Shown here piece after piece: positions 38,150 to 51,290 of a stretch of DNA of 64,000 nt (positions are counted from its first letter, which is position 1; the number at the start of each line of letters is the position of its first letter). Under the pieces are notes generated by a model. The model had not been told where the DNA came from, ran no database searches, and saw only the letters and a list, made by a program, of their open reading frames with translations. This stretch comes from the human T2T-CHM13v2.0 reference genome, Homo sapiens: contig CP086569.2 of the NCBI GenBank assembly GCA_009914755.4, forward strand, positions 14,688,001 to 14,752,000, read 5' to 3'. Both the position numbers and the translations under genes were made by a program.

Positions 38150-39420
38150 TGGTGGGATGGTATTGTGTCTGGAATTGGTGGGTTTTTGGTCTCACTGACT
38201 TCAAGAATGAAGCTGCGGACCCTTGCGGTGGGTGTTACAGCTCTTAAGGCGGCACGTCTGGAATTGTTCATTCCTCCCGGTGGGCTCGTGGTCTCACTGG
38301 CTTCAGGAGTGAAGCTGCAGACTTTCGCGGTGAGTGTTACAGCTCATAAAAGCAGCGTGGACCCAAAGAGTGAGCGGTAGCAAGATTTATTGCAAAGAGC
38401 AAAAGAACAAAGCTTCCACAGTGTGGAAGGGGACCTGAGCATGTTGCCATTGGTGGCTCAGGCAGCCTGCTTTTATTCTCTTGTCTGGCCCCACCCACAT
38501 CCTGCTGATTGGTAGAGCCAAGTGGTCTGTTTTGACAGGGTGCTGATTAGTGCGTTTACAATCCCTGAGCTAGACACAAAGGTTCTCCACTGTACCCACT
38601 AGATTGGCTAGATACAGAGTGTCGACACAAAGGTTCTCCAAGTCCCCACCAGAGTAGCTAGATACAGAGTGTTGATTGGTGCATTCACAAACCCTAAGCT
38701 AGACACAGGGTGCTGATTGGTGTATTTACAATCCCTGAGCTAGACATAGAGGTTCTCCACTCCTCACCAGGCTCAGGGGCCTAGCTGGCTTCACCCAGTG
38801 GATCTCGCACAGGGGCTGCAGGTGGAGCTGCCTGCCAGTCCCGTGCCCTGCGCTCGCATTCCTCAGCCCTTGGGTGGTTGATGGGACTGGGCGCTGTGGA
38901 GCAGGGGGTGGCACTTATTGGGGAGGCTCGGGCAGCACAGGAGCCCATGGAGTGGGTGGAAGGCTCAGTCATGGCGGGCTGCAGGTCCCGAGCCCTGCCC
39001 TGTGGAAAGACAGCTAAGGCACTGCCAGAAATCGAGCGCAGCGTGGGTGGGCTGGCACTGCTGGGGGATCCGGTACACCCTCCGCAGCCGCTGGCCCGGG
39101 TGCTAAGTCCCTCATTGCCTGGGCTGGCAGGGCCGGCTGGCTGCTCCGGGTGTGGGGCCCGCCAAGCCCACACCCACCCGGAACTCCAGCTGGTCCGCAA
39201 GCACGGCACGCAGCCCTGGTTCCCACTCGCGCCAATCCCTGCACACCTCCCTGCAAGCTGAGGGAGTGGGCTCCAGCCTTGGCCAGCCCAGAAAGGGGCT
39301 CCCACAGTGCAGCGGCGGGCCGAAGGCCTCAAGTGCCGCCAAAGCGGGAGCCCAGGCAGAGGAGGCACCGAGAGCGAGCGAGCCAGCATGCTGTCACCTC
39401 TCAGTATCATCCTCAGTCCC
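38150..39420 (+). mobile_element. LTR12-family (ERV9/HERV9) solo LTR, ~1.27 kb
   Basis: ggtctcactggcttcaggagtgaagctgcagactttcgcggtgagtgttacagctcataaaagcagcgtggacccaaagagtgagcggtagcaagatttattgcaaagagcaaaagaacaaagcttccacagtgtggaagg is followed by the tandem U3 repeats of ERV9 LTRs (…ctgattggt…caatccctgagctagacacaaaggttctccac…gtgttgattggtgcattcacaaaccctaagctagacacagggtgctgattggtgtatttacaatccctgagctagacatagaggttctcc). A GC-rich segment follows (…ggcttcacccagtggatctcgcacaggggctgcaggtggagctgcctgccagtccc…). Confidence 0.85.
38515..38725 (+). promoter_or_regulatory. U3 CCAAT-box (GATTGG) tandem-repeat region of the + LTR12; about 3 intact motifs and 1-2 degenerate ones
   Basis: ctgattgg at ~38515, ttgattgg at ~38672, ctgattgg at ~38713, plus a degenerate ctgattag at ~38543. 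In characterised ERV9 LTRs these repeats bind NF-Y; that is established knowledge, not tested here. Confidence 0.6.
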
Positions 39421-41060
39421 TTGGTCTCTTGGGTTGAATAACTGCATATATTAATCCATTATTTTAAAACTATTTATTCATTGTAAAAGCCCCTTGAACC
39501 TAACAAATGCCTGACACATGTGTTTGTCTCCTCAGATTATTTGGTATCTCCTTGGGAAAAGAGGCTGTGGATTACAACTGTTGGGGCTCACTTGAACTCC
39601 TTAAAAGGCAGAGCAAGCTTTTATTTTTTTCTATGTCTTTGAGCACCAAGACTGGCCATGCTCACTAAAGGGAATTGAAGTTTAGAGAATGTGAAATGGG
39701 CGGCATATACAGATTGGTCTAGGGGTCCTTTCTAGTTCTCCCAGAACCCAAGGAAGCAGACTTCATTTTCCCCATTGTACAATATAGAAAACTGGGAGTT
39801 AGATGGAATAATGGACAAGTTTGCCAAAATTTGTTGGTTGGGGGCTACATTGCAGGACTTTTTGTTTTAAAAGCTCATGTTCTTTCTTCATACTTCAAAT
39901 TTCTGTTCTTGGCATCAGAAGCTGAGTAGATTCTCCCTCCAAGTATTTGGAAAGGAAATATAAAACTTAATTTTTTCACCATACTGAATATTGTTTCGTT
40001 CAGACAATATCCCCACACGGAGAACCAGAAACAAAGACATCATAGTCCTTAGGCACTTGGAGTTCAATCTCCTTTGAAATTCTCAGGAAGATCATTTGTT
40101 TTACACAATATTCGCTTTGAACTTGGACTCACTTTGGGACTTTAAGTAACCTACAGGATTCCCTAACTGAACCCAGTTGTCCCATTATGATAGGGAATTG
40201 TTTTTACTCCTCAAATCAAAGTGATAGCAAACTTTTCAAAGTGTAGGGTGAACCTTTGCAAACACTTTTTTTAAAAAATTCCTTTGCTTTAGCTCAGTGT
40301 CTAACCAAGGAAATGAGAAACCATCAGCGCAGGTAGAGAGCTCGCTGGTCAGGTCATCCCTGCTGCTTGCAAAACAATCCAGACCTTGTCTGAGTGGGGT
40401 GAACATGGCAGTCCCAGTAGGAACAGCTTGGGTTGGTCATGGCTGTTAATTTTTTTCTCTATTTCTGAACCCTACAACCCACAGATATGTGTTCATCGCA
40501 TTATTTCCTTTCTGGGTGGCAGGAATCAATATAAAGCTGCTGTGGTGATTTTACCATCCTCCCTTTTATTATTACTTTTGTACCTTTTTATGCCTTGCTA
40601 TGTTATCAACCCTTTTACTGCTCTGAGTTAAAGACAGCACATAAATAGTTATGCAAATAAAATGAAAGCGTATATTGTTTAATTTACCTTTAGTTATTTC
40701 AGAGAGAAAAAAAATACATGTAACCTAAATGTTCCAACGTATTTCTTAACAGTTGTATCTGCTTTGGGAAAAGAATCTCTGTAAATTTTCTTTTAAAATT
40801 TTTATTTCCTTAACTTTGTGTGGGTACATAGTAGGTAGTAGGTGTACATATTTATGGGATACATGAGATGTTCTGATACAGGCATGCAATATGAAATAAA
40901 CACATCATGAAGAAGGGGTTATCCATCCCTTGAGCATTTATCTTTCAAATCTCAGTAAATTGTAAAGCATTTCTGTTCAGTAGGTAGACATCAGCCACAT
41001 TTGCTATTTTAAGTTTACATTTACCTAAATTGAATACAATGAAAATTCTTCGTCTCTGTA

Positions 41061-49569: not shown

Positions 49570-49800
49570 GAATACAACTCAGCCATAAAAAGGATGAATT
49601 AATGGCATTTGCAGCAACTTGGTTGAGATTAGAGACTATTATACTAGGTGAAATAACTCAGGAATAGAACACCAAACATTGTGCACTCACTCATAAGTAG
49701 GAGCTAAGCTATAGGATGCAAAGGCGTAAGAATGACACAGTGGAGTTTGGGGGTCCAGGGGAAGGGTGGGAAGGGGATGAAAGATAAAAGATTACAAATT
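49566..49800 (+). mobile_element. L1P 3'-end fragment interrupted by the LTR12 insertion
   Basis: aatacaactcagccataaaaaggatgaattaatggcatttgcagcaacttggttgagattagagactattatactaggtgaaataactcaggaatagaacaccaaacattgtgcactcactcataagtaggagctaagctataggatgcaaaggcgtaagaatgacacagtggagtttggggg...aaattgggtgcagtgtgtactgcttgggtgatgg parallels L1 ...tactcagccataaaaaggatgaattcatgtcctttgcagcaacatggatg.agctgga.gccattatcctaagcgaactaac.caggaacagaaaaccaaata.cgcatgttctcacttataagtgggagctaa... Confidence 0.8.
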
Positions 49801-51290
49801 GGGTGCAGTGTGTACTGCTTGGGTGATGGTGAGAGGTGACAACGTGCTAGGGCCCTTGCTTGCTCTCGGGTCTTCCTCAGCCTCGGTGTCCACTCTGGCT
49901 GTGCTTGAGCAGCCCTTCAGCCTGCTGCTGCACTGTGGGAGCCTCTCTCTGGGCTGGCTGAGGCTGGAGCCAGCTCCCTGCTTGCGGGGAGGTGTGGAGG
50001 GAGAGGTGTGGGTGGGAACTGGAGCTGTGCACAGCGCTTGGGGGCCAGCGTGAGTTCTGGGTGGGCATGGGCTCCGCAGGCCCCGAACTCGGAGCAGCCG
50101 GCTGCCACCCCCGGCACAGTAGTGAGGGGCTTAGCACCGGCGCCAGCAACTGGGGAAGGGGTGCTGGGTCCCGCAGCACTGCCGGCCCACCTGCGCCATG
50201 CTCGAATTCTTGCCAGACCTCAGCCACCTCCCCACGGGGCAGGACTTGGGACCTGCAGCCTGCCATGCCCGAGCCCCCCTGTAGTGGGCTCCCACGCAGC
50301 CCCAGCCTCCCTGACGGGCACCGCCCCCTGCTCCATGTTGCCCGGTCCCATCGACCACCCAAGGGCTGAGGAGTGCAGGCTGGCCATGTGGGACTGGCAG
50401 GTAAGCCTATGGCCCTGGTGCCAGATCCACTAGGTGAAGCCAGCTGGGCTCCTGAGTCGGGTGGGGACTTGGAGTTCTTTTATGTGTAGCTGGGTGATTG
50501 TATAATGAACCAATCAGCACTCTGTGTCTAGCTGGGAGTTTGTGGATGCAGCAATCAGCATTCTGTATCTAGCTAATCTGGTGGGAACTTGGAGGACTTT
50601 TATGTCTAGTTAGAGGATTGTAAATGCACCAATCAGCACTCTGTGTCTAGCTAAAGGTTTGTAAACGCACCAATCAGTGCTCTGTGTCTAGCTAATCTAG
50701 TGGGGACTTGGAGAATTTTTACATCTAGCTAGAGGATTGTAAATACACCAGTCAGCACTCTGTGTCTAGCTCAGGGATTGTAAATGCACCAATCAGCACC
50801 CTGTCAAAATGGACCAATTAGCCCTCTGTAAAATGAACCAATCAGCTCTCTGTAAAACGGACCAATCAGCGCTCTGTAAAATGGGCCAATCAGCAGGATG
50901 CGGGTGCAGGTGGGTCAGATAAGGGAATAAAAGCAGGCTGCCAAAGCCAGCATTCTGAAGGTGCTTAGGTCCACTTCTGCACTGTGTAGGCTTTGTTCTT
51001 TCACTCTTTGCAATAAATCTTGCTGCTGTTCCCTGTTTGAGCCCACACTGCCTTTATGAACTGTAACACTCACCGTGAAAGTTTGCAACTTCACTCTTGA
51101 AGCCGGTGAGACTACTAACCCACCAGAAGGAAGAAACTCTGAACACATCCGAACATGAGAAGGAACAAACTCCGGACCCACCATCTTTAAGAACTGTAAC
51201 ACTCACTGCAAGGGTCTGTGGCTTCATTCTTAAAGTTAGTGAGACCAAGAACCCACTAATTTCAGACACAATGCATGCACCCAAATCTCA
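49800..51290 (-). mobile_element. LTR12-family (ERV9/HERV9) solo LTR, ~1.5 kb, inverted relative to 38150..39420 and of a different subfamily (roughly 80% identity, more U3 repeat units)
   Basis: The reverse complement of 51150..51290 reads ...gtgggttcttggtctcactaactttaagaatgaagccacagacccttgcagtgagtgttacagttcttaaag...tagtctcaccggcttcaagagtgaagttgcaaactttcacggtgagtgttacagttcataaaggcag...gcaagatttattgcaaagagtgaaagaacaaagcctacacag. The reverse complement of 50500..50900 gives the ERV9 U3 repeats (gctgattggtgcatttacaatcctctaactagacataaaagtcctccaagt..). The GC-rich distal part is collinear with the + copy. Confidence 0.85.
50509..50892 (-). promoter_or_regulatory. U3 CCAAT-box tandem array of the minus-strand LTR12: about 8 intact CCAAT motifs and 2 degenerate ones, at ~24-45 bp spacing
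   Basis: On the + strand: gaaccaatcagcac (50511), gcagcaatcag (degenerate), caccaatcagcac (50630), caccaatcagtgc (50671), caccagtcag (degenerate), caccaatcagcac (50790), ggaccaattag (50815), gaaccaatcagctc (50839), ggaccaatcagcgc (50863), gggccaatcagcagg (50887). Confidence 0.7.

What the first reader, a model, noticed from the sequence alone, without database searches (positions are those of the whole stretch)
38150..51290. Three ERV9-type LTRs within 13 kb: an inward-facing inverted LTR12 pair plus an adjacent LTR12-related LTR
An LTR12/HERV9 LTR on the + strand (38150..39420) and a second LTR12 on the minus strand (49800..51290) face each other across ~10.4 kb. A third, shorter LTR12-related LTR (48760..49460, + strand) sits only ~340 bp from the minus copy in convergent orientation. 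The two full LTR12 copies are only about 80% identical and carry different numbers of U3 repeat units, so they are independent insertions of different subfamilies, not the two LTRs of one provirus. A provirus would also have direct, not inverted, LTRs. It is established that ERV9/LTR12 U3 regions are strong, NF-Y/Sp1-dependent, tissue-restricted promoter-enhancers (germline, erythroid, HDAC-inhibitor-inducible). Three such units pointing into the same ~10-kb interval could plausibly drive convergent or antisense transcription across it, and the inverted 1.3-1.5-kb homology is a substrate for inversion by non-allelic recombination. Both points are inference.
Basis: partly seen in the sequence, partly recalled or inferred. 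Interest (0 to 1): 0.55.

Follow-up and report, generated by a model that had tools for sequence, protein, structure and literature searches.

The report
Three ordinary solo retroviral LTRs
The region holds three separate leftover retroviral LTRs of a common primate family. The two large ones point away from each other rather than toward each other, so this is ordinary repeat content and not a special regulatory or rearrangement-prone structure.

Summary
LTR A (38164-39403) is an ERV9/LTR12 solo LTR whose sense strand is MINUS. LTR B (49830-51270) is an LTR12 solo LTR on PLUS. Every published sense-strand LTR12 motif lies on those strands and none on the opposite strand. A and B are therefore divergent and point outward. 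Only the third LTR, C (48728-49329, minus), points into the interval.

A has a perfect 4-bp target-site duplication (GTAT). B splits an old L1 whose two halves stay collinear. C has CTAG/CTAG. These are three independent solo LTRs, not one provirus, and no A-by-B inversion has happened in this haplotype. No gag/pol/env domain lies between them.

A and B are 78% identical with 225 gap columns, and their longest exact match is 24 bp. That is a very poor substrate for homologous recombination. C belongs to a ~500-bp family that elsewhere flanks ERV-W-like proviruses, so it is most likely LTR12F. About 100 LTR12 pairs this close are expected by chance in a human-sized genome. Verdict: ordinary, already-known repeat content.

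The parts
38164..39403 (-). LTR A: ERV9/LTR12 solo LTR, 1240 bp. The 5' end TGAGAGGTGACA is at 39403 and the 3' end ...CCAGACACA is at 38164.
   Evidence: Sequence. Aligns end to end with B as its reverse complement. All sense-strand LTR12 motifs lie on the minus strand.
38160..38163 (.). Left copy of A's target-site duplication, GTAT. The right copy is at 39404-39407.
   Evidence: flank print...GGTAT|TGTGTC and ...CTCTCA|GTATCA. A perfect 4/4 match at boundaries fixed independently by the TG...CA termini.
38768..39403 (-). GC-rich ~640-nt 5' extension of A. This feature marks the LTR12C/D/E types.
   Evidence: Aligns with B 49830-50459. 59-69% GC. Feature described in PMC8767690 and PMC11853044.
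38503..38767 (-). A's U3 enhancer repeats (E elements of about 41 nt) carrying CCAAT, GATA-type and GTGGGGA motifs. About 5-6 units.
   Evidence: TRF periods 41 and 50. Repeat family D4. Motif positions.
38446..38496 (-). A's core promoter, apparently intact. GC box GGGTGGGG at 38489-38496, AATAAAA at 38471-38477, start-site palindrome GCCACCAATGGC at 38446-38457. The palindrome lies 76% along the LTR. Predicted transcription runs toward lower coordinates.
   Evidence: The expected layout is given in PMC11853044.
38177..38391 (-). A's R/U5. Poly(A) signal AATAAA at 38386-38391. Two ~71-nt B elements at 38279-38349 and 38177-38247.
   Evidence: Repeat family D10..
49830..51270 (+). LTR B: ERV9/LTR12 solo LTR, 1441 bp, TGAGAGGTGACA...TTTCAGACACA.
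   Evidence: Sequence. Alignment to A. All sense-strand motifs on the plus strand.
50460..50897 (+). B's U3 enhancer repeats. A 119-nt super-repeat x2.9 (41-nt units) plus 24-nt AAAATGGACCAATCAGC units x4.7. Eight CCAAT boxes.
   Evidence: TRF. Repeat families D2, D3, D5, D6..
50926..50957 (+). B's core promoter, degraded. AATAAAA is present at 50926-50932, but the start-site palindrome reads GCCAGCATTCTG instead of GCCANNNNTGGC.
51012..51256 (+). B's R/U5. Poly(A) signal at 51012-51017. Two 72-nt B elements at 51052-51123 and 51185-51256. The spacer between them differs in type from A's.
   Evidence: Repeat family D11..
49462..49829 (+). Left half of an old L1 3' end that B split. The right half runs from 51271 to about 51377 and ends in an A-rich tail. 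The flanks read ATGG|LTR|ATGC.
   Evidence: L1 homology of 49569-49678 to the window's L1 at 25626-25737. Flank sequences. The L1 identity of the right half and of 49462-49568 rests on my own knowledge of L1 sequence, not on a tool result.
48728..49329 (-). LTR C: 602-bp solo LTR of a distinct ~500-bp family, probably LTR12F. 5' end TGAGGGACTAAGTGG at 49329, 3' end ...TCATCTTA at 48728. Sense-strand features: TATA at 49046-49051, AATAAA at 48878-48883, three CCAAT boxes, one NF-kB-like site.
   Evidence: Boundaries come from aligning six related copies found in metagenome contigs. Motifs. R-U5 homology to LTR12.
48724..48727 (.). Left copy of C's target-site duplication, CTAG. The right copy is at 49330-49333.
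   Evidence: Sequence, read at the boundaries set.
49138..49275 (-). A 69-bp tandem duplication inside C's U3. Each unit has a CCAAT box and a kB-like GGGGACTTTCC / GGAGACTTTCC site. Only one of the seven related copies aligned (L016) shares this duplication.
   Evidence: TRF period 69 x2.0, 88%. Family alignment.

Best explanation
The region contains three independent solo LTRs. They are the remains of three separate class-I endogenous retrovirus integrations, each later reduced to one LTR by recombination between its own two LTRs.

A (38164-39403, minus) and B (49830-51270, plus) are ERV9/LTR12 LTRs of the long type. Both carry the ~600-nt 5' extension, which places them among LTR12C/D/E. 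C (48728-49329, minus) belongs to a shorter, related family, most likely LTR12F. Elsewhere that family flanks ERV-W-like proviruses.

Polarity:
- A and B lie back to back. Their U3 ends face the interval, and their promoters fire outward.
- C fires leftward into the interval, toward the U3 end of A.

Expected behaviour, inferred from the published family properties and not shown here:
- They are silent, methylated NF-Y/CCAAT-rich promoter-enhancers.
- If de-repressed (germline, HDAC inhibition), transcripts would start near 38450 going left from A. A has an intact GC box, AATAAAA and start-site palindrome.
- B would start less efficiently, near 50950 going right, because its palindrome is lost.
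- C would start roughly 25-30 nt downstream of its TATA box (49046-49051), near 49020, going left.

Their proximity is a chance result of repeat accumulation in an AT-rich region with no CpG island.
For: Identity as LTR12 (A and B):
- TG...CA termini.
- 41-nt U3 repeats carrying CCAAT, TCTGTATCTAGCT and GTGGGGA.
- AATAAAA about 20 nt before the GCCA... start-site motif, at 76-77% of the LTR length.
- 71-72-nt U5 repeats (D10 and D11).
- A ~600-nt GC-rich 5' extension.
- All of these match the published description (PMC11853044; PMC8767690).

Polarity:
- Motif strand counts: AATAAA 2 vs 0 in both A and B; CCAAT 7 vs 1 in A and 8 vs 0 in B.
- An unrelated LTR12 copy (L019) shows the same order: AATAAAAGC...GCCAGCAGTGGC...AATAAA.
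- For C, three relatives follow an env C-terminus plus the polypurine tract GAGAGAGGGGGC in the same direction. Pfam TLV_coat matches that env.

Independence:
- TSD GTAT/GTAT for A and CTAG/CTAG for C.
- ATGG/ATGC plus collinear L1 halves for B.
- 78.4% identity with 225 gap columns.
- No Pfam domain in any stop-free stretch of 45 aa or more in 39404-49829.

C's family:
- Relatives are about 500 bp long.
- The neighbouring env matches syncytin-1 best, E=3.7e-54.
- This fits the published 'LTR12F-HERV17-LTR12F' structure (PMC6995185) and 'LTR12F about 500 bp'.
- L015 joins a C-like U3/R to an LTR12-type U5.

Context: the window is 39% GC with no CpG island.
Against: - No RepeatMasker/Dfam library was available. 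Subfamily names (LTR12C vs D vs E for A and B, LTR12F for C) are inferred from features and literature, not from alignment to consensus sequences.
- B's TSD matches only 3 of 4 bases.
- C's 3' terminus reads TA rather than CA, and its TSD was found after the boundary had been set by family alignment. Some freedom therefore remains.
- The Pfam test would miss heavily degraded coding remnants shorter than 45 aa between stops.
- No expression, methylation or chromatin data could be consulted, so all statements about activity are inference.
- LTR enhancer effects do not depend on orientation and cannot be excluded.
Confidence: 0.9

Rival explanations
1. Three LTR12-type promoters all point into the ~10-kb interval and drive convergent or antisense transcription across it.
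For: The LTRs are real and carry many CCAAT boxes. LTR12 promoter activity is well documented (PMC11853044, PMC5085097). C does point into the interval.
Against: Strand-specific motifs put A on minus and B on plus, so both fire outward (confirmed on L019). B lacks the start-site palindrome. A C-initiated transcript would enter A in sense orientation and meet A's poly(A) signal. It would not collide with an opposing promoter.
Confidence: 0.03
2. The inverted A/B pair is an active substrate for non-allelic homologous recombination. The 10.4-kb interval would then be, or have been, inverted in some haplotypes.
For: The two LTRs are inverted homologous sequences of 1.2-1.4 kb lying 10.4 kb apart. 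HERV-mediated NAHR is documented (PMC4195946).
Against: Identity is 78.4% with 225 gap columns, and the longest exact match is 24 bp. Estimated minimal processing segments are 300-500 bp, and the published screen for NAHR-prone HERV pairs selected pairs at >=94% identity over >=2 kb. In this sequence A's TSD is intact and B's L1 flanks are collinear, so no A-by-B exchange has occurred.
Confidence: 0.03
3. The three LTRs are pieces of one rearranged provirus, or A and B arose by an inverted segmental duplication.
For: Close spacing, and shared family membership of A and B.
Against: Each LTR has its own TSD and unrelated flanks. No gag/pol/env domains lie between them. Identity is 78%, and the U3 and U5 repeat architectures differ. 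C belongs to a different family. The interval holds unrelated repeats: L1, Alu and an ERVK-type solo LTR.
Confidence: 0.02

Closest known systems
ERV9 LTR12C/D/E solo LTRs (about 2,900 copies in human: LTR12C 2453, LTR12D 377, LTR12E 104)
   Same: A and B have every sequence landmark described for this family. These are the ~600-nt 5' extension, 41-nt CCAAT/GATA/GTGGGGA U3 repeats, AATAAAA before the start-site motif, 72-nt U5 repeats and TG...CA ends. A also has the 4-bp TSD.
   Different: B has lost the GCCANNNNTGGC start-site palindrome and has an insertion in its GC box. Which of C, D or E each one belongs to could not be determined without consensus libraries.
LTR12F, the ~500-bp LTR annotated in 'LTR12F-HERV17-LTR12F' ERV-W-like proviruses
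   Same: C's relatives are about 500 bp long. They sit 3' of an env whose closest solved relative is syncytin-1. They share R-U5 homology with LTR12.
   Different: C itself is 602 bp because of a 69-bp and a 23-bp internal duplication. The assignment rests on length and proviral context. It was not aligned to the LTR12F consensus.
The beta-globin locus control region ERV9 LTR (LTR12C enhancer/promoter with 14 U3 repeats)
   Same: Same family and the same NF-Y/GATA repeat architecture. It transcribes in the sense direction out of the LTR.
   Different: No olfactory-receptor or globin coding motifs were found in the window. Nothing indicates co-option here. A and B have fewer repeats (about 5-6 and 10-11).
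HERV pairs that mediate recurrent NAHR (for example the HERV-H pairs of Campbell et al. 2014)
   Same: Two homologous retroviral sequences on one chromosome segment.
   Different: The pairs screened there were directly oriented, at least 2 kb long and at least 94% identical. A and B are inverted, 1.2-1.4 kb, 78% identical, and share at most 24 bp of perfect identity.

Membership tests
ERV9 LTR12 (A and B) | U3 tandem E elements of about 41 nt carrying CCAAT (NF-Y), TCTGTATCTAGCT (GATA) and GTGGGGA (MZF1-like) motifs, 5-17 units | tested here: met
   TRF period 41 in both LTRs. Sense-strand CCAAT: 7 in A, 8 in B. GATA-type motif: 1 in A, 5 in B. GTGGG[G/A/T]A, the relaxed pattern scanned: 3 in A, 4 in B. 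Definition from PMC11853044.
ERV9 LTR12 (A and B) | AATAAAA box about 30 nt upstream of a TSS lying in GCCANNNNTGGC, at about 70% of the LTR length | tested here: inconclusive
   A meets it: AATAAAA at 38471-38477 and GCCACCAATGGC at 38446-38457, 76% along. B has AATAAAA at 50926, but the palindrome is broken (GCCAGCATTCTG).
ERV9 LTR12 (A and B) | U5 with 72-bp B-element repeats | tested here: met
   Two units of 71 nt in A and two of 72 nt in B (D10 and D11).
ERV9 LTR12C/D/E subgroup | An additional ~600-nt extension at the 5' end | tested here: met
   A 39403-38768 aligns with B 49830-50459. Feature described in PMC8767690.
ERV9 LTR12 (A and B) | Significant alignment to a Dfam/Repbase LTR12 subfamily consensus (RepeatMasker call) | not testable with these tools
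   No repeat library was available. As a surrogate, the 3' part of A is 91.6% identical to an independent LTR12 copy, L019. B is 83-88% identical to it.
ERV9 LTR12 (A and B) | NF-Y binding and promoter/enhancer activity (testis, erythroid, HDAC-inhibitor induced) | not testable with these tools
   No ChIP, CAGE or RNA data were accessible.
Solo LTR (all three) | TG...CA termini flanked by a short direct target-site duplication, with no adjoining internal retroviral sequence | tested here: met
   A: GTAT/GTAT. C: CTAG/CTAG, with the terminus mutated to TA. B: ATGG/ATGC, 3 of 4, within a collinear L1. No Pfam domains in the interval.
LTR12F (C) | LTR of about 500 bp that flanks HERV17/ERV-W-like internal sequence | tested here: met
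   Relatives L009 and L010 are about 500 bp. L010, L015 and L016 lie 3' of an env. L010's env was the one queried, and its best PDB hit is syncytin-1, E=3.7e-54. Literature.
LTR12F (C) | Alignment to the LTR12F consensus | not testable with these tools
   No repeat library was available.
Single (possibly rearranged) provirus | Two LTRs in direct orientation sharing one TSD, with PBS, gag-pol-env and PPT between them | tested here: not met
   A and B are inverted, have separate TSDs and are 78% identical. No retroviral domains lie between them.
Convergent promoter pair | Two promoters oriented toward each other | tested here: not met
   A is on minus at the left and B is on plus at the right, so they are divergent.
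NAHR-competent inverted repeat | High identity (>=94-95%) over kilobases, including uninterrupted identity of the order of 300-500 bp | tested here: not met
   78.4% identity, 225 gap columns, longest exact match 24 bp. Criteria from PMC4195946.

The most novel reading that the evidence does not exclude
Suppose the whole 13-kb segment is read through as one RNA, for example as part of a host intron or a long non-coding transcript. The inverted A/B pair could then fold into a ~1.2-kb imperfect double-stranded RNA. The best 226-nt arms form 198 inter-arm pairs, at -334 kcal/mol against -138 for shuffled controls. Such a structure could act as an ADAR-editing or innate-sensing ('viral mimicry') substrate. 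Alternatively, the back-to-back B/C pair, whose 5' ends lie 500 bp apart, could act as a de-repressible bidirectional NF-Y promoter. Neither idea is tested here, and nothing in the sequence shows that a read-through transcript exists.
Probability: 0.05. Interest if true: 0.3.

Novelty: already known. Interest (0 to 1): 0.07.

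Why it matters
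It matters little biologically. The human genome has 4,000-6,000 LTR12 elements, and neighbouring copies like these are expected by chance. The useful outcome is a correction. LTR polarity has to be read from strand-specific landmarks: CCAAT repeats, then AATAAAA, then the start-site motif, then AATAAA, then U5. Getting it backwards turned an unremarkable divergent pair into an apparent convergent promoter trap. The analysis also shows that TSDs and flank collinearity can rule out both a provirus origin and a past inversion without any external data.

Tried and rejected
- Viral-contig scans for an LTR12 17-mer and a C-specific 20-mer. These gave only chance hits or none, and no primate ERV sequence.
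I replaced it with concatenated stop-free stretches of 45 aa or more. That search found no families.
- The scan of bacterial and archaeal genome contigs for a conserved LTR12 21-mer gave only two LTR12 fragments, present as contaminants. It gave no full provirus, so ERV9 orientation could not be confirmed from gag/pol direction. I relied instead on published sense-strand motifs and on L019.
- The Rfam scan of the whole window found nothing.
- I tried to place the locus by looking for HLA-DRB, olfactory-receptor, globin and KRAB-ZNF peptide motifs and for CpG islands. Nothing was found, and the genomic locus remains unidentified.
- A literature text search for an LTR12 sequence string was uninformative.
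- The paper on the LTR12F upstream of ERVK-7 prints no sequence that could be compared with C.
- I considered whether the 6/9 similarity of the 9 nt upstream of A and B (GGATGATAC vs GGGTGATGG) means the LTR starts earlier. I rejected this. By my own recollection of L1 3'-end sequence (not a tool result), B's flank is L1, and A's flank contains its TSD.

Full report
**What is there.** The window is AT-rich primate DNA (39% GC, no CpG island). It is full of L1 and Alu copies.

The repeat search over 37-52.5 kb found a long series of inverted matches between 38.2-39.4 kb and 49.8-51.3 kb. It also found internal tandem repeats of 41, 50, 119, 24 and about 72 nt inside both blocks. Reverse-complemented, the first block aligns end to end with the second.

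A global alignment gives 963 matches, 265 mismatches and 225 gap columns. That is 78.4% identity over aligned positions and 66% overall. The longest perfect match is 24 bp.

**Boundaries and target-site duplications.**
- LTR A runs 38164-39403. On the plus strand it reads TGTGTCTGG...CACCTCTCA. It is flanked by GTAT on both sides (38160-38163 and 39404-39407).
- LTR B runs 49830-51270 (TGAGAGGTGACA...TTTCAGACACA).
  - It sits inside the 3' end of an old plus-strand L1.
  - The L1 continues on the same strand on both sides (49462-49829 and 51271 to about 51377).
  - The flanks are ATGG and ATGC.
- Each LTR therefore has its own integration site.
- A crossover between A and B would have separated A's two GTAT copies and split the L1 halves onto opposite strands. 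Neither has happened.

**Family membership of A and B.** A 2025 review (PMC11853044) lists the sequence landmarks of ERV9 LTR12:
- 5-17 U3 "E" repeats of about 41 nt, with CCAAT, TCTGTATCTAGCT and GTGGGGA;
- an AATAAAA box about 30 nt before a start site inside GCCAGCAGTGGC (GCCANNNNTGGC), about 70% along the LTR;
- 72-bp "B" repeats in U5;
- in LTR12C/D/E, an extra ~600 nt at the 5' end (also PMC8767690).

Both A and B show all the repeat landmarks and the 5' extension.

A keeps the GC box (38489-38496), AATAAAA (38471-38477) and a perfect palindrome GCCACCAATGGC (38446-38457, 76% along).

B keeps AATAAAA (50926-50932), but its palindrome is destroyed (GCCAGCATTCTG). Its GC box carries a 5-nt insertion.

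The U3 repeat block is about 268 nt in A and about 438 nt in B. The two U5 regions retain different spacers between their B elements.

I could not assign the names C, D or E without a repeat library. The 3' part of A is 91.6% identical to an independent LTR12 copy, L019. B is 83-88% identical to it. This suggests that B is the more diverged or older copy.

**Polarity: the main correction.** All the landmarks above are strand-specific.
- In B they are on the plus strand. CCAAT is 8 vs 0, AATAAA 2 vs 0, and the GATA-type motif 5 vs 0.
- In A they are on the minus strand. CCAAT is 7 vs 1, and AATAAA 2 vs 0.
- An unrelated LTR12 copy, L019, shows the same order: CCAAT, then AATAAAAGC, then GCCAGCAGTGGC, then AATAAA, then B elements, then ...CCGGACAC.

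Their U3 ends face the 10.4-kb interval, and their promoters point away from it. The pair is divergent, not "inward-facing".

A 20-mer present in both copies of its internal 69-bp repeat retrieved related copies from metagenome contigs, presumably primate contamination. The alignment fixes the element at 48728-49329 on the minus strand.
- Its 5' end is TGAGGGACTAAGTGG.
- Its 3' end is ...TCATCTTA.
- It is flanked by CTAG on both sides.

Relatives are about 500 bp long. C is 602 bp because of a 69-bp and a 23-bp tandem duplication.

Three relatives (L010, L015, L016) share upstream sequence that ends in the polypurine tract GAGAGAGGGGGC immediately before TGAGGG. That upstream sequence encodes the C-terminus of an envelope protein in the same direction.
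- Pfam TLV_coat matches it.
- Its closest solved relative is syncytin-1, E=3.7e-54.

This confirms C's polarity. It also shows that the family flanks ERV-W-like proviruses. The literature describes exactly such "LTR12F-HERV17-LTR12F" loci (PMC6995185) and gives LTR12F a length of about 500 bp.

One relative, L015, joins a C-like U3/R to an LTR12-type U5 with B elements. The family therefore does sit within the LTR12 continuum.

I conclude that C is most likely LTR12F (inference, about 0.7). Its sense strand carries TATA (49046-49051), AATAAA (48878-48883), three CCAAT boxes and a kB-like GGGGACTTTCC.

C points into the interval, toward the U3 end of A. Its 5' end lies 500 bp from the 5' end of B. 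C and B are therefore divergent, not convergent.

**Not a provirus.** All stop-free stretches of 45 aa or more in the six frames of 39404-49829 gave no Pfam family at E<=1. The interval instead holds:
- an L1 3' end at 42291-42667;
- an Alu at 46790-47100;
- an L1PA-like 3' end at about 48214-48385;
- a fourth, unrelated solo LTR at 43328-44320, with a 6-bp TSD.

Together with the three separate TSDs, this rules out a single rearranged provirus and an inverted duplication.

**Inversion substrate?** Published work puts minimal efficient processing segments at 300-500 bp of near-perfect identity. The genome-wide screen for NAHR-prone HERV pairs selected pairs at >=94% identity over >=2 kb, although the breakpoints it confirmed themselves lacked 300-500 bp of uninterrupted identity (PMC4195946). 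A and B offer 78% identity, many indels and at most 24 bp of perfect match. This is a very poor substrate, and the present haplotype is demonstrably uninverted.

**Chance.** The human genome holds about 4,000-6,000 LTR12 copies. Uniform placement in about 3.1 Gb predicts roughly N^2*d/G, or about 100 pairs within 13 kb (my arithmetic). Half of those would be inverted. Triples are rarer, with only a few expected, but they are not remarkable. ERVs and L1s also accumulate in AT-rich, gene-poor DNA such as this.

**How it most likely works.** Shown: three independent solo LTRs with the polarities given above. Inferred from family knowledge:
- They are normally silenced.
- If de-repressed, A is the most promoter-competent and would transcribe leftward, out of the interval.
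- B would transcribe rightward and is impaired.
- C would transcribe leftward through the interval and could terminate at its own poly(A) signal or at A's.
- Orientation-independent enhancer activity through NF-Y cannot be assessed here.

If one RNA spanned both A and B, they would pair into a long imperfect duplex. There is no evidence that such a transcript exists.

**Verdict.** The regulatory and structural speculation built on that claim falls away. This is ordinary, already-known repeat content.

Noticed in passing
window 43328-44320 (+): A fourth solo LTR inside the interval, 993 bp, TGTGTGTGG...CCCTACA. It has a 6-bp target-site duplication, CCAGAC/CCAGAT (5 of 6 match), and AATAAA at about 44143. 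The family was not tested.
   Followed up: partly
window 37494-37799: A long (TTC)n microsatellite, about 101 units at 77% matches. On the minus strand it reads (GAA)n. It lies 365 bp beyond the U5 end of LTR A, directly downstream of A's predicted direction of transcription.
   Followed up: no
L019 1-511 and L017 (whole 637-bp contig): Two public 'bacterial' assemblies contain primate LTR12 sequence. One is an Acidobacteriaceae MAG contig and the other an Actinacidiphila cocklensis contig. Both are up to about 92% identical to LTR A. This looks like human or primate contamination of those assemblies.
   Followed up: partly
L013 (3806-bp metagenome contig), about 3095-3450: A fragment of the C-type LTR is flanked on both sides by sequence that does not align with any of the other copies. 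To my eye that flanking sequence looks GC-rich and bacterial, but I did not test this. It could be a chimeric assembly.
   Followed up: no
L015 (reverse complement) 539-1166: A hybrid LTR. It has C-type (LTR12F-like) U3 and R, followed by LTR12-type U5 with B elements (81% identical to LTR B's U5). It links the two LTR families.
   Followed up: partly
L007 1212-1559 (+) and 2474-2978 (-): Two inverted copies of the C-type LTR on one 3.4-kb contig share about 85 nt of identical upstream flank. This is either an inverted duplication or an assembly artefact.
   Followed up: no
L016 1013-1321 (-): In this relative, a retroviral protease ORF (Pfam RVP, E=1e-11) lies almost directly upstream of the env C-terminus. 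The provirus is therefore internally deleted.
   Followed up: no
window 38781-39410 (-) and 49877-50362 (-): Open reading frames of 209 and 161 aa lie inside the GC-rich 5' extensions of the two LTR12s. One is sense to A and the other antisense to B. They are most likely a by-product of GC richness. Neither was searched separately; both lie outside the interval covered by the Pfam search.
   Followed up: no
window 51676-52075: An 11-nt tandem repeat (ACACAGGGAGA, about 3.5 units) and a 232-bp-spaced direct repeat lie just downstream of the L1 tail to the right of LTR B. Their repeat family was not identified.
   Followed up: no
window 48386-48727 and 49330-49461: The sequences immediately flanking LTR C matched nothing else in the window or in the fetched loci.
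   Followed up: partly
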